DNA of 64,000 nucleotides from Dehalococcoidia bacterium (GCA_965203855.1 CBDBDN010000005.1:321804-385803); one strand, 5' to 3'; counted from the first letter of the stretch, positions 3 through 13,622 are shown. Numbers and translations are program-made. The notes: a model not told the origin generated them from the letters alone.

Positions 3-338
3 CAAAGCCATCTGGACGCCGCCGACCGCAGCTTCGCCGCCGGCGACACACTGCAAGCTTCGTCGGAATTGTGGCAGGCGTCGCTGTGCGCGCTGCAAAT
101 GGTAGCCGACGCGCACGGCTGGGAATGCCGCACGGAAAAGGACTGGAACGCCATCGTCAACCGACTAGCGGTAAAGCTGGACGACCCCTATCTGCTACAA
201 GCCGGCTTGGGCGCGCCCGAACTTTTCCGCGCCAACGCCGTTTATGATTTCCTGGAGGATGTGGATGCCCGGGTGTTCCGCAAGAGCGTACCCATTTTCA
301 TCCGGAATTTACTCGAGCTGGGCGGCATGACGGACTAG
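3..338 (+). CDS. PaREP1-like small helical protein, 5' end off the window edge
   Basis: The frame is open from the left edge. SSELWQASLCALQ and a later LFRANAVYDF segment fit the PaREP1-type pattern (acidic-K/W-W-x-A ... H/R-x-N-F/V-Y). It is paralogous to the next ORF. Confidence 0.4.
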   Translation, partial: QSHLDAADRSFAAGDTLQASSELWQASLCALQMVADAHGWECRTEKDWNAIVNRLAVKLDDPYLLQAGLGAPELFRANAVYDFLEDVDARVFRKSVPIFIRNLLELGGMTD

Positions 339-2818: not shown

Positions 2819-3616
2819 TTATGCGCCGCGCAACCGCCGCAGTTCGGCTTGCAGGCGGGCGACTTCCGCTTCCGCAGTTTGCCGCCGATTACGCTCGGCC
2901 TGCGTCGCGGCTTCGGCGGCCTGCGCTATGGCTTCGGCGGCCTGCGCTGCGGCTTCGGCGGCCAATCTCCCCCGCTGCTGCTCCAGCACATTGCCCAGGA
3001 ATTCACCGGTGGACGGGTTGCGGAACCACAAGCGGTCGTCGGTTGCCCATAAATCAAGCCCCAGCGTTGGGCTGTATCCCCAAACCGCGCCCGACGGGTC
3101 ATCATGCAGCTCAACCGGAATGTAAGCGCCATCCGCCAGATATTCGCCGGCCAGCAGTTGGCCGTACAACTCACCGCCGCTAGGGTCGTAGCGCCAGTAT
3201 TCGCCGATGCCGACCCGCGCATACAAATCCCGCTTGTAGCCCAAATCGTTCTGCCAAGTGCTTTTGGAGCCGATTTCCAGGGCGAAGGCCGGCGGCTGGC
3301 CGAAATCCCAGATGCGGTAGGCGTAGGGCCACCACAAGCGGTCGGCGTTCTCGCCAAACACTACATAGCAATCGGGGATGAACACGGCGTCGGGGTTGCC
3401 CTCCTCGTAATAGACGCCGGTGTTGCCGGAAACGAACACATCGGAGCGGTCGCCGAACCAGCTGCGGATGGCTTCCATAATGTCATTGCGGGGGCGTTCC
3501 TGCATTTCGGGATCCGGCAGCGGGGATAGGATTTCCGGGTAGGCGTCCAGCAGGTCATCGTCAATATGCGCTGGCAGGGGCGGGTAGCGGTAGTAGTAGC
3601 GGGATTTGACAACCAT
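2819..3616 (-). CDS. Uma2-family (DUF820) putative endonuclease with a C-terminal coiled-coil tail
   Basis: The Uma2 core reads VFVSGNTGVYYEEGNPDAVFIPDCYVVFG ... ALEIGSKST ... KRDLYARVGIGEYWRYDP. An Ala/Glu-rich tail ends in ARLQAELRRLRGA. Confidence 0.85.
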   Translation of the reverse strand: MVVKSRYYYRYPPLPAHIDDDLLDAYPEILSPLPDPEMQERPRNDIMEAIRSWFGDRSDVFVSGNTGVYYEEGNPDAVFIPDCYVVFGENADRLWWPYAYRIWDFGQPPAFALEIGSKSTWQNDLGYKRDLYARVGIGEYWRYDPSGGELYGQLLAGEYLADGAYIPVELHDDPSGAVWGYSPTLGLDLWATDDRLWFRNPSTGEFLGNVLEQQRGRLAAEAAAQAAEAIAQAAEAATQAERNRRQTAEAEVARLQAELRRLRGA

Positions 3617-3689
3617 AGCAGAGCCTCAATCATACATACGGCCAGCCGAGCTGGGGCCGAGAATTGGCCATTCGGTTGAGCAGTTCCAC

Positions 3690-4445
3690 TTATGCGCCGC
3701 GCAACCGCCGCAGTTCGGCTTGCAGGCGGGCGACTTCGGCTTCGGCAATCTGCCGCCGGCTGCGCTCGGACTGCGCGTCGGCTTCGGCAGTGATGCGGCC
3801 TTGCTGCTGTTCCAGGACATTGCCCAGGAATTCCCCGTTAGCCGGATTGCGGAACCGCAGCCGGTCTCCGGCGGCCCACAAGTCCAGCCCCAGCGTTGGG
3901 CTGTATCCCCAAACTGCGCCCGACGGGTCATCATGCATCTCAAACGCGATGTAAGCGCCATCGGCCAGATGTTCGCCGGCCAGCGGCTGGCCGTACAGCT
4001 CGCCGTCATTGGGGTCGTAACGCCAGTATTCGCCGATGCCGACCCGCGCATACAAATCCCGCTTGTAGCCCAAATCATTCTGCCAAGTGCTTTTGGAGCC
4101 GATTTCCAGGGCAAAGTCCGGCGGCTTGCCGAAATCCCAGATGCGGTAGGCGTAGGGCCACCACAAGCGGTCGGCGTTCTCGCCAAACACTACATAGCAA
4201 TCGGGGATGAACACGGCGTCGGGGTTGCCCTCCTCGTAATAGACGCCGGTGTTGCCGGAAACGAACACATCGGAGCGGTCGCCGAACCAGCTGCGAATGG
4301 CTTCCATAATGTCCTGTCGGGGGCGTTCCTGCATTTCGGGATCCGGCAGCGGGGATAGGATTTCCGGGTAGGCGTCCAGCAGGGTATCGTCCAGCGTAGC
4401 CGGCCATCCGGCAGGGTAGCGGCGGGTTCGCACTTTGGTAGTCAT
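3690..4445 (-). CDS. Uma2-family putative endonuclease, tandem paralogue
   Basis: Near-identical central core to 2819..3616 at both protein and DNA level, with the same C-terminal ARLQAELRRLRGA. Confidence 0.85.
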   Translation of the reverse strand: MTTKVRTRRYPAGWPATLDDTLLDAYPEILSPLPDPEMQERPRQDIMEAIRSWFGDRSDVFVSGNTGVYYEEGNPDAVFIPDCYVVFGENADRLWWPYAYRIWDFGKPPDFALEIGSKSTWQNDLGYKRDLYARVGIGEYWRYDPNDGELYGQPLAGEHLADGAYIAFEMHDDPSGAVWGYSPTLGLDLWAAGDRLRFRNPANGEFLGNVLEQQQGRITAEADAQSERSRRQIAEAEVARLQAELRRLRGA

Positions 4446-4590
4446 AGCAGCGTCTCAAACCGGAGTGTACCCAAGGCATACCTTACGACAGCGGCCGTTT
4501 GCGCCGGCGTCAAAAAGTGGCTGCCGCGCTTCCGGCCTTTGGCGCCTATTATACCCGATACTTGCGCCAGGGTTGACGGCTGGCCGGCCG

Positions 4591-5488
4591 TCAGCGCGCC
4601 CGCCGCAGCCGCGGGTCAAGGTAGTCCCGTAGCCAGTCGCCAAAGAAATTGAACGCCATTACCACGACAGTGATAATCAAGCCGGGGAACAGGGCCAGCC
4701 ACCACGCCTGCGTCAGGAACTCTTTGCCTTCGGCAATCATTATGCCCCAGGCCGGGTCGCCTACTTTGAGGCCCAGCCCCAGGAAGCTCAACGAGGCTTC
4801 CAGCAAGATGACCTGGCCGATGCTGACGCTGGTCAACACCATCAGCGTGTTGATGACATTGGGGAACAGATGCCGCCAGACAATCATTGAGGAGGAGACG
4901 CCGTAGATTTGGGCCAGGATGACGAAATCGCGGTCGCGTACCGACAGCACTTCGCCGCGTATCATCCTGGCGAACCGCGCCCACTGCGTAGCGGCAATGG
5001 CAATCATCACATTCCAGACGCCGGTGGCCCAGGTAGGATACAATCAGCAGGGCCACCAGGATAGAGGGGAATCCCAGCACGGCGTCGGTAATCCGCATCA
5101 GTATGGAGTCCACCCAACGGCCGGAATAGCCGGAAACCAGCCCGACTACCGTGCCGGCCAGGATGGCCACGGCGATTGACGGGACGGTAACCTGCAACAT
5201 CGTCCGCGCCCCGAAAATGAGGCGGCTCAACATATCCTTGCCCAGGCGGTCGCTGCCGAGGATATGCTCGGTGCTGGTGAACGGCGGTTGCTGCTTGTTG
5301 CGGACGTCGTTTTCGCGCGGATCGTAGGGCGCAATCAGGTTGGCGAAAACGGCGCAGAAAACGATAACCAGCAGAATGGCAATCGGAATCCACGGCAGCC
5401 GGGCGTCGCGGATACGCTGCGCCAGGCTCGGGCGGGCGCGCGCTTCAAGCAGCAGGATGGGGTTTTCAGCGGTCAAAACGCGCTCCAA
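4591..5488 (-). pseudogene. ABC transporter permease (OppC/DppC-like), apparent frameshift near 5024-5030
   Basis: The N-terminal half is in ORF 4616..5488 (up to GFPSILVALLIVSYLG). The C-terminal half is in ORF 4591..5043 (TGVWNVMIAIAATQWARFARMIRGEVLSV...DYLDPRLR). The two frames join at a short C/G run (gggccacc). Confidence 0.8.
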
Positions 5489-5519: not shown

Positions 5520-6062
5520 TCAGAAAGATTGGTCTTGAAAACGGGAGCGCAAAGGCTCGGAAGCCGGGTCTTTCAATTCCTCGACGATGAGCTGGCAGAT
5601 ACGGGTTCCCGGAATGAGGCGGCAAACGAATGGGCCAACATTGGAGATTTCCAACCGAATGCTGCCGCGAAAATCAGCGTGGACAGTAGGTGCGGTTTGG
5701 TGTATTGACAAACCAAACCGTGCGATTGAGCTTTTGCCTTCGACTCTTGCCGCCAGATGCAACGGCATAGCCACGCGTTCCAAAGTACTGGTCAGCGCAA
5801 ATGCGCCCGGCGGCAGTTCCAGATATTCACCATCCGGCACCTCTTTGTTTATACCGTAGCGGACTGCTGTGGCTTCCGGTTCGGTCTGTCCGATGGTTAC
5901 GAAAATGCCGGCGCCGGGAATGGGCTGTTCAAATACCGAGAACCGGCTCCCCAGCCGCAAGTCCACCGCCGAAGTCGCAAACATCGCCTTTTCCGGCAAT
6001 GGGTCGATAATCAGCTGCCCGGACTGCAAAGCGTCGGCAATGTTCTGTCCGCTGTAAATCAT
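5520..6062 (-). CDS. dCTP deaminase / dUTPase-superfamily protein
   Basis: 180 aa from the ATG at 6062. LIIDPL, SAVDLRLG, PGAFALTSTLERV, ARVEGKSSIARFGLSIH and FRGSIRLEISN match the Dcd-type layout. The ATG overlaps the upstream TGA (TGATG). Confidence 0.75.
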   Translation of the reverse strand: MIYSGQNIADALQSGQLIIDPLPEKAMFATSAVDLRLGSRFSVFEQPIPGAGIFVTIGQTEPEATAVRYGINKEVPDGEYLELPPGAFALTSTLERVAMPLHLAARVEGKSSIARFGLSIHQTAPTVHADFRGSIRLEISNVGPFVCRLIPGTRICQLIVEELKDPASEPLRSRFQDQSF

Positions 6063-6388
6063 CACCACCAACCATCAACCACGGTAATTCCCTGCTCCGC
6101 TTTCGGCACACGCAAGAATTCCGTGGACTGGACGGTTTCCTCCGGTATCAGGACGTGCCAGTCGCCATTGTCATAATCGCCAACGATGATGGCTTTGAGC
6201 CATTTTTCGGCGACGTTGACAGAGTAGTCCGGCATCCAGCCGTGATAAATCTGGTCGCCGAGTACAAAGGATACGGTGAACTCCTCCGGGAACCAGCTGC
6301 TGTCGGCGACGGAACGCAGCCTGATTTTAGCGGCGGCTTTCTGTTTCCGGTCAGTAGGCCAATCCCAGTTGATTTTGGCGGTGGTCAT
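6062..6388 (-). CDS. Hypothetical 108-aa protein, translationally coupled to the dCTP-deaminase-like gene
   Basis: ATG at 6388 (MTTAKINWDWP...). Trp-rich with no family recognised. Its stop overlaps the start of the downstream gene. Confidence 0.55.
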   Translation of the reverse strand: MTTAKINWDWPTDRKQKAAAKIRLRSVADSSWFPEEFTVSFVLGDQIYHGWMPDYSVNVAEKWLKAIIVGDYDNGDWHVLIPEETVQSTEFLRVPKAEQGITVVDGWW

Positions 6389-6459
6389 TATGGTGTTCCC
6401 CGGTTTGCGAAAGTGAGGCGGGATAGTAGCGTTCCAAACCGAACCCGTCAACCGCAAAC

Positions 6460-7425
6460 CTACCCCAGCCGCACCCGCGGGTCGGCGTAGCCGTACAGGA
6501 TGTCCACCACCAACGCGGTCAGGATATAGGCCGCGCCGGATACCATAATGGCGCCGAGAACCTGCGGGTAGTTGTTGGACAGCACCCCGTCCAGCAGCAT
6601 CAGCCCGACGCCGGGCCAGGCGAACACCACTTCCACCACTACCGAGCCGTTGAGCAGGCCGGCCAGGCTGATGCCGCCAAAGGTGATGACGGGTATCAGC
6701 GCATTGCGGGCGGCGTGTTTCCAGATAACCGCCCGCTCGCCCATGCCTTTGACCTGGGCGAATTTGACATAGTCGGTGTCCAGCACTTCCAGCATTGCGG
6801 AACGGGCCAGCCGCATTATGGCGGCGATGATGGCCAGGGCCAGCACCGAGGCCGGCAGTATCAGATGGAGCAGCATATTGGGGATCTGCGACCATTCGGG
6901 CAGCCAGCCCTGCGTATCGCCGCGTCCAAAGGCCGGCAGCCAGCCCCAATAGCCGGCGAACAGGATAATCAGCATTATGGCAATCCAGAACTGCGGTGCC
7001 GCCATTCCGAATACGGCGAAGGCTTTGCAGGCGCGGTCCAGCAGGGTGTCGCGCTTGACTGCCGAGATGATGCCTAACGGCACGCCGACGCCGATGGCGA
7101 GGATGATGCCGGACAGAGCCAGATGCACCGTCGCCGGGATGCGTTCCAGCAGTATTTCCTGCACCGGACGGCGCGCCGTAAAGGAGTTGCCGAAGTCCAG
7201 CCGCACCGCATTTTTGAGGAAGTTCCAGTACTGGATGATGAACGGCTTGTCCAGCCCCAGGGCGGCTTTCTGCTTTTCGTACACCGCCTCGTCGTGGTCC
7301 TCGGAGATGGGCAGCAGGAAACGGGCCGGGTCGCCGGCCAGGTGGACGCTGCCGAAAACGACGAAGCTGAGGGCGATGAGGGTAATGACGCCCTCAATCA
7401 GGCGGCGGGCGATGTAGCCGGTCAT
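6460..7425 (-). CDS. ABC transporter permease (OppB/DppB-like)
   Basis: MTGYIARRLIEGVITLI start, multi-TM, EAA-like region, and a C-terminal YGYADPRVR typical of OppB/DppB. Confidence 0.9.
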   Translation of the reverse strand: MTGYIARRLIEGVITLIALSFVVFGSVHLAGDPARFLLPISEDHDEAVYEKQKAALGLDKPFIIQYWNFLKNAVRLDFGNSFTARRPVQEILLERIPATVHLALSGIILAIGVGVPLGIISAVKRDTLLDRACKAFAVFGMAAPQFWIAIMLIILFAGYWGWLPAFGRGDTQGWLPEWSQIPNMLLHLILPASVLALAIIAAIMRLARSAMLEVLDTDYVKFAQVKGMGERAVIWKHAARNALIPVITFGGISLAGLLNGSVVVEVVFAWPGVGLMLLDGVLSNNYPQVLGAIMVSGAAYILTALVVDILYGYADPRVRLG

Positions 7426-7618: not shown

Positions 7619-9448
7619 TTACTTGAGCTGCACCGTCCAGATGGCGGTTACATAAGGCACCAGGCTCCAAGGTTCGTAGGAGGCCACGTCGGCGCCCAGT
7701 CCCCAGGGTACATTGGTGTTGAAGCCGTCGCCCCAATACGCCTGGTCGTACAGGTAGGCGTACATTTCGTTGTACGACTGCTGCCGGGTGTCGGGGTTGA
7801 GGTCGGCGAGGCCCTCAATCACTACCGGGGTAGTGGTGCTGGCCCACGGCTCCTTTACGGGGTCGTCGATGGCGCGCCAGGCGATGGCCTTGTTGTTGTA
7901 CGCGCCTTGGGTGATGGAAGTGCCGTCGTAGCGGGCTTCGTTGGTGCGTACCAGGACGTCGCCGGGGTATTCGCGGTTGTTCCATGCCTGACGGGTGGCG
8001 GCGGCGGCGCCGACCACTACTTCAACATCCCAGCCGAGTTCGTCCCAGAAATCCTTGTAGAGCTGGGCCAGGTCGGGCAGTCCGGGCAGGTCGCCGGCTT
8101 CCCAGGTATAGACGGTGAAGGAGATCTGCTCGCCGTTGGCGTCGGTGCCGTCCAGTCCGGTTTCGCCGCCGTAGCCGATGGACTTCAGCAGTTCGGCCGA
8201 CTTGTCCAGGTCATAGGGACGCGGCTCCAGGTTCGGCCCCCAGCCCAGGGAGTTGGGGGTTACATGGGACCAGCTGTTGGCGTTGATGGCCTCGGGGGAG
8301 TAGAGGTCGTTGACGATGGACTGCTTGTCCAGGGCGTGTTCGGCGGCCTGGCGGGCTTCCTTGGGGTAGCACCACAGCGATTCGTTCCAGCAGTCCACAT
8401 AGACGACCCAGTTGTAGGAGGATTCGTTTTGCCAGGCGATGCTGGCGCCGTCAATGTTGTTGATGTCATCCACCATATTGATGTTGGCTTCAATCAACTG
8501 GGCGGTGCCGGAGCGGAGGGCGGCCTGTCGGGAGGCGGGTTCCGGCACCACATCCATCGTCAGGGTGTCAAATCCGACGCGGCGATCTTCGTCATAGCCG
8601 TTGCCGGGATGCCAGAAAAAGTCGTCAAACCGCTCAAAGGCGTACTTCTGCTCCAGGATGGAATCGGCCTTGTTGACGGTCATCGAGCCGATGCCGATGG
8701 GGTTGTCCTCGTAGCAGGCGAACCCGACGTTGTCGGCAACATCGGCGCAGGCGCGCATGGCGGATTCGGGGACAATCATCGGGTCGGCGCCCTGGGCGTT
8801 TTCGGACCAGTTGAAGGCGAAGTCCAAGCGCACGGTATTGAAAGTTACCGAGACCTGGTTGTCGGCCGGGCCTTTGTCCACGCTGTCCACGCGCTCGGCG
8901 AAAGCGACGTCGCGCGGTTCGTAGTAGCCGGCTTCCAGCAGTTCCTGGGCTTCCAGGCCCATGCGGCTGTCCAGATTAAAGAACACGTCGTCGCGGGTGA
9001 TGGTGTCGCCGTTGTGGGCCTGGATGGTGTTCTCTTTGATGTCAAAAGTCCAGACCAGGCCGTCATCGCTTACCGACCATTTTTCGGCGACGGCGGGGGT
9101 AAGTTCGCTGCCGCCCTTGCCGCCGACGAGGGCGACCTGGAACATCCGCTGGAACTTGAGATCTTCGCCCTCAGTGAGGAACGGGTCGTACTTGCCGTTG
9201 CCGATGTTGGTAATCAGGACGGTAACATCGCCGCCGGATGATTCGGACATCATTGCATCGGTAGGGGCCGGCATGGCGGTGGGGGCGGCGCTGGCGGGGG
9301 CCGATGTGGCGGCGGGGGCCGCGGCGGAGCCGGAGCTGGCCGGGGCGGGTTCATCGGACGCGCCGCTACAGGCGACTGCGGCGATGAGCCCGGCAGAAAG
9401 CCCGGCGGCCAGCAGCAGCCTCCAGTTCAGAAATCGTTGCAGTGGCAT
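7619..9448 (-). CDS. ABC transporter substrate-binding lipoprotein (family 5, OppA/DppA-like)
   Basis: Start at the ATG at 9448 (MPLQRFLNWRLLLAAGLSAGLIAAVACSG, lipobox-like). Ala/Pro/Ser linker followed by a long solute-binding domain. Confidence 0.88.
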   Translation of the reverse strand: MPLQRFLNWRLLLAAGLSAGLIAAVACSGASDEPAPASSGSAAAPAATSAPASAAPTAMPAPTDAMMSESSGGDVTVLITNIGNGKYDPFLTEGEDLKFQRMFQVALVGGKGGSELTPAVAEKWSVSDDGLVWTFDIKENTIQAHNGDTITRDDVFFNLDSRMGLEAQELLEAGYYEPRDVAFAERVDSVDKGPADNQVSVTFNTVRLDFAFNWSENAQGADPMIVPESAMRACADVADNVGFACYEDNPIGIGSMTVNKADSILEQKYAFERFDDFFWHPGNGYDEDRRVGFDTLTMDVVPEPASRQAALRSGTAQLIEANINMVDDINNIDGASIAWQNESSYNWVVYVDCWNESLWCYPKEARQAAEHALDKQSIVNDLYSPEAINANSWSHVTPNSLGWGPNLEPRPYDLDKSAELLKSIGYGGETGLDGTDANGEQISFTVYTWEAGDLPGLPDLAQLYKDFWDELGWDVEVVVGAAAATRQAWNNREYPGDVLVRTNEARYDGTSITQGAYNNKAIAWRAIDDPVKEPWASTTTPVVIEGLADLNPDTRQQSYNEMYAYLYDQAYWGDGFNTNVPWGLGADVASYEPWSLVPYVTAIWTVQLK

Positions 9449-9803
9449 TGTTCGGTTAGTCCTCCTACAAGTTCTATTGGCAGCGCGCGCGGCGTCAGTT
9501 TCTGCCAAGTCGGTTGGGAATGGGGCAGAATTAAACGCTGATAGCGCCATATTGTCAATAGCGGGTTGCGAAATCCGCGCGCCGGGTAGATGATATGCGG
9601 CGGCGGCTCAGGTATGATATGCGGACGGCAGCCGCCGCCGGAACGCCGTTTTGGGGATATGGTTTCTCAGGATGCCGTCTTTCGGGATGCCGAGACTCTG
9701 GGAATGCCATCTACTGGAATGTCGTCTTTTGGAATGCCGAAACTGGCGGAGAAATTCGCTCGCTGCGCTGTCGCTGGGCGGGCGTGAAACCGGAAAATAG
9801 CTG

Positions 9804-10145
9804 ATGCCAACCTGGATGCCGACTATAACGCCGACCCGACTGCTGTATATCGTTTGCGCCGCTGCGGGCGGTTTTGGCGCCGCCGGGTATTTAATCTGGG
9901 CGGTTATCGCCCGGTTCAGTTTCATTGCGGCGCTGAACGACCGGGCGCAGCTGGAGACGAATGTGCTGGTGGTGCTGTGCGCGGCCATCGGGCTGCTGGC
10001 TTTTCCGCTGGGGGCGGCGGCGGGCCTGCTGTGCGCCGTAGTGGTGAACCGTCTGGCCGACTATGCGCGCCGGGCGCTCCGGTCGTCGGGCGACAGCCGG
10101 GGGCATAGTTCCTGGGTAACCCGGCGCGGCCCGCGGGACGGATAG
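9804..10145 (+). CDS. Hypothetical small membrane protein
   Basis: Two hydrophobic helices. There is no other support. Confidence 0.3.
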   Translation: MPTWMPTITPTRLLYIVCAAAGGFGAAGYLIWAVIARFSFIAALNDRAQLETNVLVVLCAAIGLLAFPLGAAAGLLCAVVVNRLADYARRALRSSGDSRGHSSWVTRRGPRDG

Positions 10146-10307
10146 GCCGCTGCCGTCGGGGTTTTACTTTTACGCCGATGGACAGGAGGGACGGGATTTC
10201 GGCTTTGGAGGAGTTGTGTATAATGCGGGGCAGTTCCGGCGGATACTGTGGCCGGCGCGTCCGGGCGGCCCAAGCAAGCGGCCCGGAATTGGACAAGGAG
10301 ATTACCG

Positions 10308-10676
10308 ATGCCGCAATTTTTACGCGTCTATACCGGGTCGGACGGGCAGTCGCATCTGGAGCCCTACGAGCCGCCATTTGAGGACTTTGTGGATACCGAG
10401 GGGGCCTACGGGCGGGGGACGCCGTTGCAGCCGACTACGGGGATGACCATACGGGTATCGCCGCCGGATTACTTTCTGGATTTCCACTGCGCGCCGCGGC
10501 GGCAATACACGGTGACGCTGTCCGGGCAGGCCGAAATCGGGTTGGGCGACGGCAGCATTTACCGGGTTGGGCCTGGCGATGTGCTGCTGGCGGAGGATTT
10601 GACCGGGCAGGGGCATACTACGCGGGTGGTGGGCGGCGGAGAGCGCGTTTATCTGGTGATACCGCTTGCCGACTGA
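10308..10676 (+). CDS. Cupin-domain protein
   Basis: AAGGAG sits 9 nt before the ATG at 10308. Beta-rich, with GDVLLAEDLTGQGHTT in a cupin-like motif region. Confidence 0.65.
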   Translation: MPQFLRVYTGSDGQSHLEPYEPPFEDFVDTEGAYGRGTPLQPTTGMTIRVSPPDYFLDFHCAPRRQYTVTLSGQAEIGLGDGSIYRVGPGDVLLAEDLTGQGHTTRVVGGGERVYLVIPLAD

Positions 10677-10740
10677 CGGCGGCGTTCCGGTAACCGTCAT
10701 TCCTATAACCGTCATTTCGGTATCTACGGTAACGGAGCCG

Positions 10741-11056
10741 GCAGTCATAGATTCCGGCTTGCGCCGGAATGACGGTGAATATGACTGCCGGTTACGGTGA
10801 ATATGACTGTCGGAAATGGCGCCGGCAAGGGTAGATTCCGGCTTGCGCCGGAATGACGGGGAATGTGCCTGCCGGTTGCGGGGAATGTGCCTGCCGGTTA
10901 TGGGGCCGGCAAGGATAGATTCCGGCTTGCGCCGGAATGACAGTGCATATGACTGACGGTTACGGTGAATATGACTGCCGGTTATGGGGCCGGCAAGGAT
11001 AGATTCCGGCTTGCGCCGGAATGACGGTGAATGTGCCTGCCGGGATGATGGTGAAT
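10741..11056. repeat. Tandem array of four 84-bp units, each carrying the REP-like palindrome ATTCCGGC-TTGC-GCCGGAAT
   Basis: Palindromes at 10751-10770, 10835-10854, 10919-10938 and 11003-11022, an exact 84-nt period. Each unit also holds two ~21-nt subrepeats (GGTGAATATGACTGCCGGTTA). Confidence 0.9.
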
Positions 11057-12684: not shown

Positions 12685-12872
12685 CCATCCGTCACTTCGG
12701 CTTATCCGCCGCTTTCGCCTGTGGGTTGGCCTCCGTAGGCAATTTGCCCCCCGGCGGCTTGCTGGAATCCCACGCTTTCGAGGATGTTTTCCTGGGGCCG
12801 GTCCCTATCAACTGGACTGTTTTGCCCTTGAATGTAGGCCGCTTGTCGTCTGGTGGCATAGTTCATCTCCTG

Positions 12873-13622
12873 CTATGTGCTGCTTTTATCGCTTTCCAGC
12901 ACTATATCATGGAACGTGGTTGCAGTCCAGCCTTGCGCGGAACGCGAACCCTCCGAATGTGCATGGTTGTAGAAGTACGAATATACCAGAATCGTCCTTG
13001 TGTCCTTTGAAATTATGAATTCGCCCGGCTCATGATGAGATTCACCCGGCTCCACAATCAGTTTATTGGGATCGCGCTGACGATGAATTTCATCCAGTAA
13101 AGGCCAGTCAATATTTTGGGGATCATCGGGATTGAATGCTTGTTTATAGAGGCGTTCAACATAGTCATCGCTCAAAGGCTGTATTTGATGAATACGAAAG
13201 AAACCCTGACGAATTTCTACTTTGACCTTTGAGCTGTTGTGCAAGGTAGTCATTACGGAGATATGGGCATACTGCGTTCCAACGGCGCGGCTGGCAACCG
13301 ATTGCGTGACCGTCAGATGCGGCTCAAAATCACGGAACAGTTGCAACTTGCGATATGCAAAAACGCCGCCCACCAGGATTAGCAAAGCCTACACAAAACC
13401 CTGTACGATGCTTACAACATCCCGGATTCTGCTAATCTCGGTTGGGCTGGTCTGATTCCGCGCCGCATCTGACAGCCAAAAATTCAGACCCCAAACCGCC
13501 ACACCCAAGATGCCGACAACGACCAACATTTCAATTGCCAGCCGCCAGTAAGGCCGTAACCGCCGCCATAGCTTCCGCATACTGACACCCCCCGGTCTAT
13601 CGCGAACCCGCTTGCCGTCCAT
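12873..13622 (-). pseudogene. Two-TM membrane protein with a C-terminal soluble domain, interrupted by an in-frame TAG
   Basis: ORFs 13389..13622 and 12873..13385 are in the same frame, separated by TAG (13389-13391) plus one codon. The stop falls inside a hydrophobic stretch (VVSIVQGFV*ALLILVGGVFAY). Confidence 0.6.

What the first reader, a model, noticed from the sequence alone, without database searches (positions are those of the whole stretch)
5520..6388. dCTP-deaminase-fold gene coupled to an unknown 108-aa partner, wedged between the two permease genes of an ABC operon
Seen in sequence. Between the OppB-like gene (ends 6460) and the OppC-like gene (starts 5488), on the same strand, lies a two-gene cassette. 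A Trp-rich 108-aa protein of no recognisable family has its TGA overlapping the ATG (TGATG at 6060-6064) of a 180-aa dCTP deaminase/dUTPase-superfamily protein.

Established: cytidine-nucleotide deaminases have been shown experimentally to act as anti-phage dNTP-depletion effectors, although the published ones carry extra domains or an sRNA partner.

Inference: tight translational coupling to an unknown small protein, plus a location inside an unrelated operon, fits a mobile effector plus regulator or immunity pair better than a housekeeping dcd.
Basis: partly seen in the sequence, partly recalled or inferred. Interest (0 to 1): 0.7.

Follow-up and report, generated by a model that had tools for sequence, protein, structure and literature searches.

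The report
Mobile Dcd-like enzyme plus partner cassette
A small protein of unknown family and an unusual dCTP-deaminase-like enzyme form a two-gene unit with its own promoter that comes and goes among Dehalococcoidia genomes and decays like a toxin-antidote pair, so it is probably not a housekeeping gene, but its activity is untested.

Summary
On the minus strand a 108-aa ORF (6388..6062) overlaps by TGATG a 180-aa Dcd-fold ORF (6062..5520), between OppB and OppC.

The pair is a conserved module. Every relative of this Dcd clade that could be checked (about 90 loci, almost all Dehalococcoidia/Chloroflexota) has a member of the same small-protein family directly upstream. The two proteins co-evolve (r = 0.83).

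The enzyme keeps the deaminase Ser/Arg/Glu residues. The whole clade has replaced the superfamily's motif-III Asp by His or Gln. The small protein is an all-beta protein with no sequence or structural relative.

The module is accessory and mobile:
- 41 of 44 orthologous Opp operons have OppB directly followed by OppC.
- A second site is also occupied in some genomes and empty in others.
- 14 of 21 related complete chromosomes show no copy.
- Some genomes carry 2-4 copies.
- Distant versions lie beside AbiU, a type IIG restriction enzyme, a serine recombinase and conjugation genes.

In 10 independent decay events the enzyme was destroyed and the small gene stayed intact. The reverse was never seen.

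Best reading (about 0.45): a toxin-antitoxin-like or effector-neutraliser module. It is not related to the published zinc-dependent defensive dCTP deaminases. Toxicity, activity and the presence of another dcd or dut in these genomes remain untested.

The parts
6423..6451 (-). Sigma-70-like promoter of the cassette: -35 TTGACG at 6451-6446, 17-nt spacer, -10 TACTAT at 6428-6423. It lies in the 71-nt spacer after the OppB stop.
   Evidence: One search finds the site at 9 of 12 matches. The two orthologous loci carry TTGACA/G at the same place. TTGACN-16..18-TANNNT occurs upstream of the small gene in 54 of 83 unique loci, against 22 of 1660 random 180-nt windows of the same loci.
6062..6388 (-). 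Small partner gene: 108 aa, Trp-rich, all-beta, no known family. Proposed neutraliser (antitoxin or inhibitor) of the downstream enzyme.
   Evidence: There are 21 close clusters but only 36 representatives among 1.84 billion proteins. The AF2 model has pLDDT 84.8 and 8 strands. Foldseek finds nothing better than E = 0.09 in PDB or BFVD. dN/dS is 0.13-0.21.
6060..6064 (-). TGATG stop/start overlap, which suggests translational coupling.
   Evidence: The same 1-nt overlap is seen in close relatives, where the Dcd match starts 3 nt after the last small-protein codon. Distant relatives show 4-nt or 11-nt overlaps or a 10-nt gap.
5520..6062 (-). Dcd-fold enzyme, 180 aa, belonging to a divergent clade. 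Proposed effector: a monofunctional dCTP-to-dUTP deaminase.
   Evidence: Searches give the family matches. One search gives PDB Dcd hits at E = 1e-21. The AF2 model (pLDDT 93) superposes on M. tuberculosis DCD-DUT and E. coli Dcd with TM 0.84-0.86.
5670..5702 (-). Clade signature HQTAPTVHADF (residues 121-131). His128 (5681-5679) replaces the motif-III Asp of canonical Dcd and dUTPase (H.TAG.IDPGF/W).
   Evidence: All 120 best homologues have HQ[TS]APT[VI][HQ]A.
5649..5741 (-). The deaminase catalytic residues are retained: EGKSSIAR (Ser111, Arg115) and Glu138 of LEISN (5651-5649).
   Evidence: by alignment to E. coli and M. tuberculosis Dcd. These columns are invariant in alignment A3.
6460..7425 (-). 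OppB-like permease. It forms the upstream flank of the insertion and is not part of the module.
   Evidence: BPD_transp_1. Searches recover 44 orthologues at 83% identity or more.
4591..5488 (-). OppC-like permease. It forms the downstream flank. It carries a 1-nt frameshift at about 5027 and probably starts at the TTG near 5476.

Best explanation
The pair is an autonomous, horizontally mobile two-gene module: own promoter, small gene, overlapping enzyme gene. It works like a toxin-antitoxin or effector-neutraliser pair.

Inferred mechanism:
1. The Dcd-fold enzyme is an active dCTP deaminase that has lost the motif-III Asp needed for dUTP hydrolysis. Its product would therefore be dUTP, not dUMP.
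2. If unrestrained, it would drain dCTP and load the pool with dUTP. That would harm replication of the cell or of an invading phage.
3. The co-translated small beta-protein binds the trimer and keeps it inactive until some signal removes it.
4. The module persists by addiction and/or by abortive-infection-type defence. It spreads by insertion into intergenic spacers, here between oppB and oppC.

Shown: the obligate pairing, the co-evolution, the mobility and patchiness, the asymmetric decay, the retained deaminase residues and the lost Asp.

Inferred: the toxicity, the physical binding, the trigger and the defence role.
For: 1. Obligate partnership. 75 of 80 clade loci have a small-family HMM hit ending at the enzyme's start. 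The other 5 lie at a contig end or carry a more divergent intact ORF of about 95-100 aa. Distant small-family members P0162, P0146, P0168, P0158 and P0151 are all followed by an overlapping Dcd. Mirror-tree r = 0.83, Mantel p = 0.001. The small protein evolves faster: 36% against 53% mean identity.

2. Accessory and mobile.
- Only 2 of 44 orthologous Opp operons, plus the window, carry the pair.
- At the Fer2/CoxL site 12 loci are occupied and 5 with identical flanks are empty.
- 14 of 21 related complete chromosomes show no copy.
- Several genomes carry 2-4 copies.
- 80 loci fall into 36 flank contexts.
- One strain has a 1220-bp low-GC segment with a divergent pair where another has 114 bp.
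- The cassette has its own promoter and GC is lower than in the flanks.

3. Asymmetric decay. In 10 independent events the enzyme gene is destroyed and the small ORF is intact: deletions in L010, L035, L012 and L026; indels in L015 and L036; nonsense codons in L075, L086 and L112; a roughly 480-bp insertion in L120. No locus has an intact enzyme with a broken small gene. Given the gene lengths, chance gives 0.624^10 = 0.009.

4. Enzyme. Ser111, Arg115 and Glu138 are conserved, while the motif-III Asp is His or Gln in all 120 homologues. In dUTPase an Asp-to-Asn change at that position abolishes hydrolysis without affecting binding (PMC4827122).

5. Some distant copies sit beside defence or mobile-element genes: AbiU at E = 3e-145 and IS1595 (L204); a large serine recombinase and a ParB-methylase (L202); a type IIG restriction enzyme and a PIN protein (L001); a TrwB coupling protein, a relaxase and an ImmA-like protein (L037).

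6. Protein inhibitors of this fold have a precedent in Stl-dUTPase complexes in the PDB (7pwx, 8p8o).
Against: - No experiment shows toxicity, binding or defence.
- Canonical Dcd is a harmless metabolic enzyme, and this protein scores above NCBI's dCTP_deam equivalog cut-off.
- The immediate neighbours in 36 contexts are ordinary metabolic genes, with no defence or mobile-element enrichment.
- Neither gene hits PADLOC.
- The small protein has no recognisable DNA-binding domain, unlike most type II antitoxins. I found no palindromic operator.
- At two sites the pair has been inherited vertically under purifying selection, with dS similar to OppB (the 22-locus synteny group). That fits any useful gene.
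- The small family pairs only with Dcd and is not promiscuous.
- I could not check whether carrier genomes have another dcd, dut or dCMP deaminase.
Confidence: 0.45

Rival explanations
1. The pair is an accessory but benign two-subunit dCTP deaminase. The small protein is a structural or regulatory subunit, for example replacing dTTP feedback control or the shortened C-terminal tail. The module offers an optional route to dUTP or dUMP for thymidylate synthesis and is gained and lost like other dispensable metabolic genes.
For: - The enzyme passes the TIGR02274 equivalog cut-off and keeps its catalytic residues.
- The fold is a standard Dcd.
- Neighbours are mostly metabolic genes.
- The pair is stably inherited under purifying selection at two sites.
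- The partnership is exclusive and the two proteins co-evolve.
- The clade's C-terminus ends about 10-15 residues earlier than canonical Dcd.
Against: - All 10 decay events destroyed the enzyme and spared the small gene. If both subunits were needed for one benign activity, decay should hit either gene.
- An orphan small gene is still intact in two species that share one enzyme deletion.
- Several genomes carry multiple divergent copies.
- Some copies lie on mobile elements next to AbiU or restriction genes.
Confidence: 0.3
2. This is the organism's ordinary housekeeping dcd, which happens to have a lineage-specific upstream ORF.
For: NCBIfam calls the protein a dCTP deaminase equivalog. No other Dcd or dUTPase gene lies in the 64-kb window.
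Against: - 41 of 44 orthologous operons lack it.
- 14 of 21 related complete chromosomes show no copy.
- 5 Cox sites are empty.
- In 10 lineages the enzyme is pseudogenised or deleted, including three clean nonsense codons.
- Some genomes carry 2-4 copies.
- The motif-III Asp is replaced throughout the clade.
Confidence: 0.05
3. The pair is cargo of mobile elements or prophages that reshapes the nucleotide pool for the element's own benefit. Examples would be dUTP supply, or a counter-measure against host dNTP-targeting defences. It has since been domesticated in chromosomes, with the small protein acting as a specificity or targeting factor.
For: Distant TAPT[VI]H-type pairs lie on IMG/VR contigs next to a serine recombinase and a ParB-methylase (L202). 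Another lies next to conjugation genes (L037). Phages commonly carry Dcd genes.
Against: - No close relative occurs in 50,697 phage or 72,556 plasmid records; the best match is 39% identity to canonical Dcd.
- Most copies are chromosomal, among metabolic genes.
- This reading does not explain the decay asymmetry.
Confidence: 0.12
4. The pair is a member of the published anti-phage dCTP deaminase or AvcID families.
For: Only the name of the reaction is shared. dCTP deamination as a defence is established (10.1101/2021.04.26.441389).
Against: The published enzymes have a zinc-dependent cytosine deaminase domain plus a kinase or NTPase domain, or an sRNA partner. This protein has the dUTPase-superfamily fold and gives no PADLOC hit.
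Confidence: 0.01

Closest known systems
Canonical homotrimeric dCTP deaminase (E. coli Dcd) and bifunctional DCD-DUT (M. tuberculosis, M. jannaschii), dUTPase superfamily
   Same: - Same fold: TM 0.84-0.86 and 31-35% identity.
- The Ser-Arg (EGKSSxAR) and Glu (LE) deaminase residues are present.
- His121 is conserved.
- The length is similar.
   Different: - The motif-III Asp (IDPG) is replaced by His or Gln in TAPT[VI][HQ]A throughout the clade.
- The C-terminus stops right after S.FQ.Q, about 10-15 residues earlier.
- A dedicated small partner gene always precedes it.
- Its distribution is patchy, multi-copy and mobile, whereas canonical dcd is one housekeeping copy.
Type II toxin-antitoxin modules
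   Same: - Bicistronic layout with the small gene first and a stop/start overlap.
- Own promoter.
- Scattered, patchy and multi-copy distribution.
- The partner evolves faster than the enzyme.
- Decay removes the putative toxin first and leaves orphan 'antitoxins'.
   Different: - In the literature I could search, no known TA toxin has the Dcd/dUTPase fold.
- The small protein has no DNA-binding domain and no similarity to any antitoxin family.
- Toxicity has not been shown.
Defensive dCTP deaminase (Tal et al.) and AvcID (AvcD plus AvcI sRNA)
   Same: The proposed chemistry is the same: deamination of deoxycytidine nucleotides to starve or poison DNA replication. The effector is also held in check until needed.
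   Different: - Unrelated fold: zinc-dependent CDA deaminase fused to a kinase or NTPase domain.
- Those systems are a single protein, or have an sRNA antitoxin and no protein partner.
- PADLOC models do not match.
Stl repressor-dUTPase complexes (staphylococcal pathogenicity islands)
   Same: They show that a protein can bind and inhibit a trimeric dUTPase-superfamily enzyme. The PDB holds such complexes (7pwx, 8p8o).
   Different: Stl is a helical DNA-binding repressor encoded elsewhere, and the biology is island derepression. It has no sequence or fold similarity to the 108-aa protein.

Membership tests
dCTP deaminase (Dcd, dUTPase superfamily; PF22769 / TIGR02274) | Sequence match above the curated family cut-offs | tested here: met
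   PF22769 scores 115.9 bits against a cut-off of 27. TIGR02274 scores 130.6 bits against 92.8.
dCTP deaminase (Dcd, dUTPase superfamily; PF22769 / TIGR02274) | Jelly-roll subunit fold of Dcd or DCD-DUT | tested here: met
   The AF2 model has pLDDT 93. Foldseek's best hits are M. tuberculosis DCD-DUT and E. coli Dcd, with TM 0.84-0.86 and E about 1e-15. The trimeric state was not testable.
dCTP deaminase (Dcd, dUTPase superfamily; PF22769 / TIGR02274) | Deaminase catalytic residues (E. coli Ser111, Arg115, Glu138) | tested here: met
   EGKSSIAR and LEISN align with the E. coli and M. tuberculosis enzymes and are invariant in the clade.
dCTP deaminase (Dcd, dUTPase superfamily; PF22769 / TIGR02274) | Conserved motif-III Asp (IDPGF/W), which is the catalytic Asp of dUTPases | tested here: not met
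   The window has TVHADF, and all 120 homologues have His or Gln at this position. Asp-to-Asn at this position kills dUTPase hydrolysis (PMC4827122).
dCTP deaminase (Dcd, dUTPase superfamily; PF22769 / TIGR02274) | Converts dCTP to dUTP or dUMP and is feedback-inhibited by dTTP | not testable with these tools
   This needs an enzyme assay.
Housekeeping dcd of the lineage | Present as a conserved gene in close relatives and orthologous operons | tested here: not met
   2 of 44 orthologous Opp operons carry it. 5 Cox sites are empty. 14 of 21 related complete chromosomes have no copy detected. There are 10 independent inactivations.
Type II toxin-antitoxin module | Two small adjacent co-transcribed genes, usually overlapping, with their own promoter | tested here: met
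   TGATG overlap. Promoter.
Type II toxin-antitoxin module | Patchy, mobile and often multi-copy distribution | tested here: met
Type II toxin-antitoxin module | The toxin gene can be lost while the antitoxin is retained, and not the reverse | tested here: met
   10 events against 0.
Type II toxin-antitoxin module | The toxin arrests growth, and the antitoxin binds and neutralises it | not testable with these tools
   No multimer prediction or experiment was available.
Type II toxin-antitoxin module | The antitoxin has a DNA-binding domain that autoregulates the operon | tested here: inconclusive
   No DNA-binding family or fold was found in the 108-aa protein. One 204-aa variant, P0168, has a C-terminal extension with only a faint MarR_2 hit at E = 0.24.
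Defensive dCTP deaminase / AvcD | Zinc-dependent cytidine-deaminase-fold domain plus an N-terminal kinase or NTPase domain | tested here: not met
   Pfam finds only DCD and dUTPase. There is no PADLOC hit. The published architecture was read.

The most novel reading that the evidence does not exclude
This is a previously undescribed toxin-antitoxin or abortive-infection family. Its effector would be a dUTPase-superfamily dCTP deaminase that has lost the dUTP-hydrolysis Asp, so it would flood the cell with dUTP while draining dCTP. A dedicated small protein of novel fold would keep it silent. If so, nucleotide-pool poisoning as a conflict strategy has arisen independently on a second, unrelated deaminase scaffold, in the largely uncultured Dehalococcoidia/SAR202 lineage.
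Probability: 0.4. Interest if true: 0.75.

Novelty: new variant of a known kind. Interest (0 to 1): 0.62.

Why it matters
If the reading is right, the known conflict systems that target nucleotide pools gain a second, structurally unrelated deaminase scaffold and a new small inhibitor fold.

It would also warn annotators. Proteins that pass the dCTP_deam 'equivalog' model in Chloroflexota may be accessory effectors and not part of thymidylate metabolism.

The pair would be a compact, testable two-gene system from a phylum with almost no genetics. The small protein could become a natural inhibitor tool for Dcd/dUTPase-fold enzymes.

If instead it is a benign two-subunit Dcd, it would still be the first Dcd with an obligate partner subunit.

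Tried and rejected
- **Small protein identity.** Pfam, NCBIfam, PADLOC and PHROGs give nothing. Foldseek against PDB and BFVD gives only weak OB-like hits with TM 0.36 or less. A profile search against PDB sequences gives nothing.
- **Small protein as a degenerate Dcd copy.** Profile-profile comparison of the small family against the Dcd clade gives probability 0.3%, so this idea is rejected.
- **Giant repeat proteins.** Hits from the representative search are SdrD-B repeats sharing a D-x-D-N-G-D-like motif. I judged them spurious.
- **Phage and plasmid collections.** Only canonical Dcd turns up, at 39% identity or less.
- **Neighbour census.** Across 36 contexts and 140 proteins I found 140 different families and no defence enrichment.
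- **Another dcd or dut.** None lies in the window, and none lies in about 2 Mb of fetched Dehalococcoidia loci. Whole-genome checks were not possible with these tools.
- **Literature.** Searches for a Dcd-fold toxin or defence effector found nothing.
- **Cassette ends.** I looked for target-site duplications. A TTGAC repeat appears at both ends at the Cox site, but no consistent rule holds across sites.

Full report
**Observation.** On the minus strand a 108-aa ORF runs from ATG 6388 to TGA 6064-6062. It overlaps, in the string TGATG, the ATG (6062-6060) of a 180-aa ORF that ends at 5520. Upstream lie an SBP_bac_5 gene (9550..7619) and an OppB-like permease (7425..6460). Downstream lies an OppC-like permease. 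The 180-aa protein matches PF22769 DCD (2e-33) and exceeds the NCBIfam dCTP_deam equivalog cut-off, 130.6 bits against 92.8. The 108-aa protein, which has 8 Trp, matches nothing in Pfam, NCBIfam, PADLOC or PHROGs. GC falls to 0.55-0.565 across the pair, against 0.60-0.63 in the flanks. The description is therefore correct.

**The small protein is real and belongs to a tiny family.** It has 21 homologue clusters at 49-92% identity, all from metagenomes. A profile search of 1.84 billion representatives finds only 36 proteins, nearly all about 100 aa. The few giant hits are SdrD-B repeat proteins that share a Ca-binding-like motif, and I regard them as spurious. AlphaFold2 gives a confident all-beta model with pLDDT 84.8, pTM 0.75 and eight strands. 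Foldseek finds no match better than E = 0.09 in PDB or BFVD. A profile search of PDB sequences finds nothing. The family is not a degenerate copy of the enzyme.

**The enzyme is a divergent Dcd.** It aligns with M. tuberculosis DCD-DUT and E. coli Dcd at E about 1e-21. Its model (pLDDT 93) superposes on them with TM 0.84-0.86. The deaminase residues are invariant: Ser111 and Arg115 in EGKSSxAR, and Glu138 in LE. Canonical enzymes then read H.TAG.IDPG(F/W).G, whereas the window protein reads HQTAPTVHADFRG. All 120 best homologues have His or Gln in place of that Asp. The Asp is the catalytic residue of motif III in dUTPases, and its replacement by Asn abolishes hydrolysis but not binding (PMC4827122, read). 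I infer that the clade deaminates but cannot hydrolyse dUTP. The clade also ends just after S.FQ.Q, about 10-15 residues before canonical Dcd.

**The two genes are an obligate unit.**
- Two scans of 185,579 species genomes found 29 small-gene loci and 88 enzyme loci. Nearly all are Dehalococcoidia or other Chloroflexota MAGs.
- In the close clade the enzyme starts exactly 3 nt after the last small-protein codon, the same TGATG-type overlap as in the window.
- Of 80 enzyme loci, 75 have a small-family HMM hit ending at the enzyme start. The remaining five lie at a contig end or carry a more divergent but intact ORF of about 95-100 aa in the same place.
- Remote small-family members at about 25% identity (P0162, P0146, P0168, P0158, P0151) are each followed by an overlapping Dcd of 182-183 aa.
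- Three IMG/VR contigs carry even more distant TAPT[VI]H-type enzymes. A weakly similar small ORF upstream was detected on two of them.
- Across 69 intact pairs the identity matrices of the two proteins correlate (r = 0.83, Mantel p = 0.001). The small protein evolves faster, with mean identity 36% against 53%.

**The unit is accessory and mobile.**
- *Opp site.* Among 44 orthologous SBP-OppB-OppC operons (OppB at 83% identity or more, distinct MAGs), 41 have the OppB stop followed within about 15-150 nt by the OppC TTG start. One has an IS630-like transposase in the spacer. Only two, OZ241860.1 and OY282456.1, share the window's insertion. Within that trio both genes are under purifying selection (dN/dS 0.11-0.21), with dS like that of OppB. 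This indicates one old insertion inherited vertically.
- *Cox site.* At a second site, between a divergent Fer2/CoxS gene and CoxL, 12 loci are occupied and 5 with the same flanks are empty.
- *Complete chromosomes.* Of the 21 complete chromosomes in the Opp set, 14 show no copy in any scan. Three of these (OZ247427.1, OY764869.1, OY760687.1) are empty at both sites. One caveat applies: the scans are pattern-based, and one kept only 80 of 88 loci.
- *Copy number.* Several genomes hold 2-4 copies.
- *Contexts.* The 80 loci fall into 36 unrelated flank contexts.
- *Strain-level difference.* In two metagenomic strains with otherwise 98-99.9% identical flanks, a 1220-bp low-GC segment with a divergent pair and its own upstream region replaces 114 bp.
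- *Promoter.* The cassette carries its own sigma-70-like promoter. In the window this is TTGACG-17-TACTAT at 6451-6423. The same pattern occurs upstream of 54 of 83 unique loci, against 1.3% of random windows.

**Decay is one-sided.** I found ten independent inactivations of the enzyme with the small ORF intact:
- near-complete deletions in L010 and L035;
- an internal deletion in L012;
- a truncation in L026;
- indels in L015 and L036;
- clean nonsense codons in L075 (TAG at codon 119), L086 (TAG at 123) and L112 (TAA at 74);
- an insertion of about 480 bp in L120.

L035 and L284 share one deletion, yet both keep an intact small gene. No locus has an intact enzyme with a broken small gene. 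If the first disabling hit fell at random in proportion to gene length, the probability of 10 out of 10 is 0.624^10 = 0.009. This is the pattern expected when the enzyme is costly or harmful without its partner. It also shows that the enzyme is dispensable.

**Context.** The two nearest genes on each side in 36 contexts are ordinary metabolic genes, with 140 families among 140 proteins and no defence enrichment. Some copies do lie next to conflict or mobile-element genes:
- AbiU (E = 3e-145) and IS1595 in L204;
- a large serine recombinase and a ParB-methylase in L202;
- a type IIG restriction enzyme and a PIN gene in L001;
- a TrwB coupling protein, a relaxase, ThiF/JAB and an ImmA-like gene in L037.

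No close relative exists in the phage or plasmid collections.

**Interpretation.** The best-supported reading is a toxin-antitoxin-like or effector-neutraliser module. A monofunctional dCTP-to-dUTP deaminase would deplete dCTP and raise dUTP, and it would be held inactive by a co-translated, fast-evolving, dedicated small protein. The module would spread by insertion into intergenic spacers and bring its own promoter. Toxicity, binding and any defence role are inferences.

The main rival is a benign two-subunit accessory Dcd. That reading explains the metabolic neighbours and the equivalog score, but not the one-sided decay. The housekeeping reading is contradicted by the empty sites, the absences and the pseudogenes.

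Membership in the published defensive dCTP deaminase or AvcID families is excluded. Those enzymes are zinc-dependent CDA-fold proteins with a kinase domain or an sRNA partner (10.1101/2021.04.26.441389). Literature searches found no Dcd-fold toxin or defence effector. Stl-dUTPase complexes show that protein inhibitors of this fold are feasible.

**Limits.** I could not inspect whole genomes for other dcd, dut or dCMP deaminase genes. I could not run a multimer prediction. I have no experimental data.

Noticed in passing
window ~5027 (minus strand), within OppC-like gene 5488..4591: The OppC-like gene has one extra C in a GGGCC run compared with intact orthologues (L122, L156). This splits it into two frames, 5488..4616 and 5043..4591. 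The orthologue in OZ241860.1 is frameshifted at a different place. This could be a long-read assembly error or a real pseudogene.
   Followed up: partly
window 2819-3616 and 3690-4445 (minus strand): Two tandem paralogous Uma2-family (putative restriction endonuclease-like) genes lie directly downstream of the Opp operon.
   Followed up: no
L128:4966-6275: An IS630-like transposase (two overlapping ORFs) is inserted in the same oppB-oppC spacer in another Dehalococcoidia genome. This spacer therefore tolerates or attracts insertions.
   Followed up: partly
L255, L256, L261, L272 (~4280-4440) versus L249, L254 (~3290-4470): In empty Cox sites, CoxL starts about 7 nt after a TTGACG-17-TACCAT promoter, so the mRNA is apparently leaderless. 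In occupied sites L249 and L254 that promoter is kept downstream of the enzyme gene, and a second TTGACA-17-TAATAT drives the small gene. TTGAC thus flanks both cassette ends. This could be a hint about the insertion mechanism, or it could be coincidence.
   Followed up: partly
L120:4413-5252: The Dcd-like gene is split by an insertion of about 480 bp bounded by a direct repeat (translated as LLTYG**A**PRFGRRQ at both ends). It may be a small non-autonomous mobile element.
   Followed up: no
L005:1415-2634 versus L004:2530-2643: A 1220-bp AT-rich segment carrying a divergent small+Dcd pair replaces a 114-bp spacer that contains a REP-like palindrome. The flanks are otherwise 98-99.9% identical.
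   Followed up: yes
L251:3466-4307 and 10122-10974; L096/L079 (CBDCSX010000002.1): Two small+Dcd pairs lie within about 6-10 kb of each other in the same genome.
   Followed up: partly
L245:1367-1981 (protein P0168): A 204-aa variant of the small protein has an extra N-terminal segment and a C-terminal extension. The extension has a faint MarR-like helix-turn-helix signal (E = 0.24). The gene is still followed by an overlapping Dcd.
   Followed up: partly
L037:4234-5781 and 7795-8244: A ThiF plus Prok-JAB fusion protein and an HTH_3/Peptidase_M78 (ImmA-like) gene lie next to a distant pair. The same apparent conjugative or mobilisable element also carries a TrwB-like coupling protein and a relaxase.
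   Followed up: no
window 12800-13400: GC falls sharply to about 0.465, against about 0.62 elsewhere. I did not examine this region.
   Followed up: no
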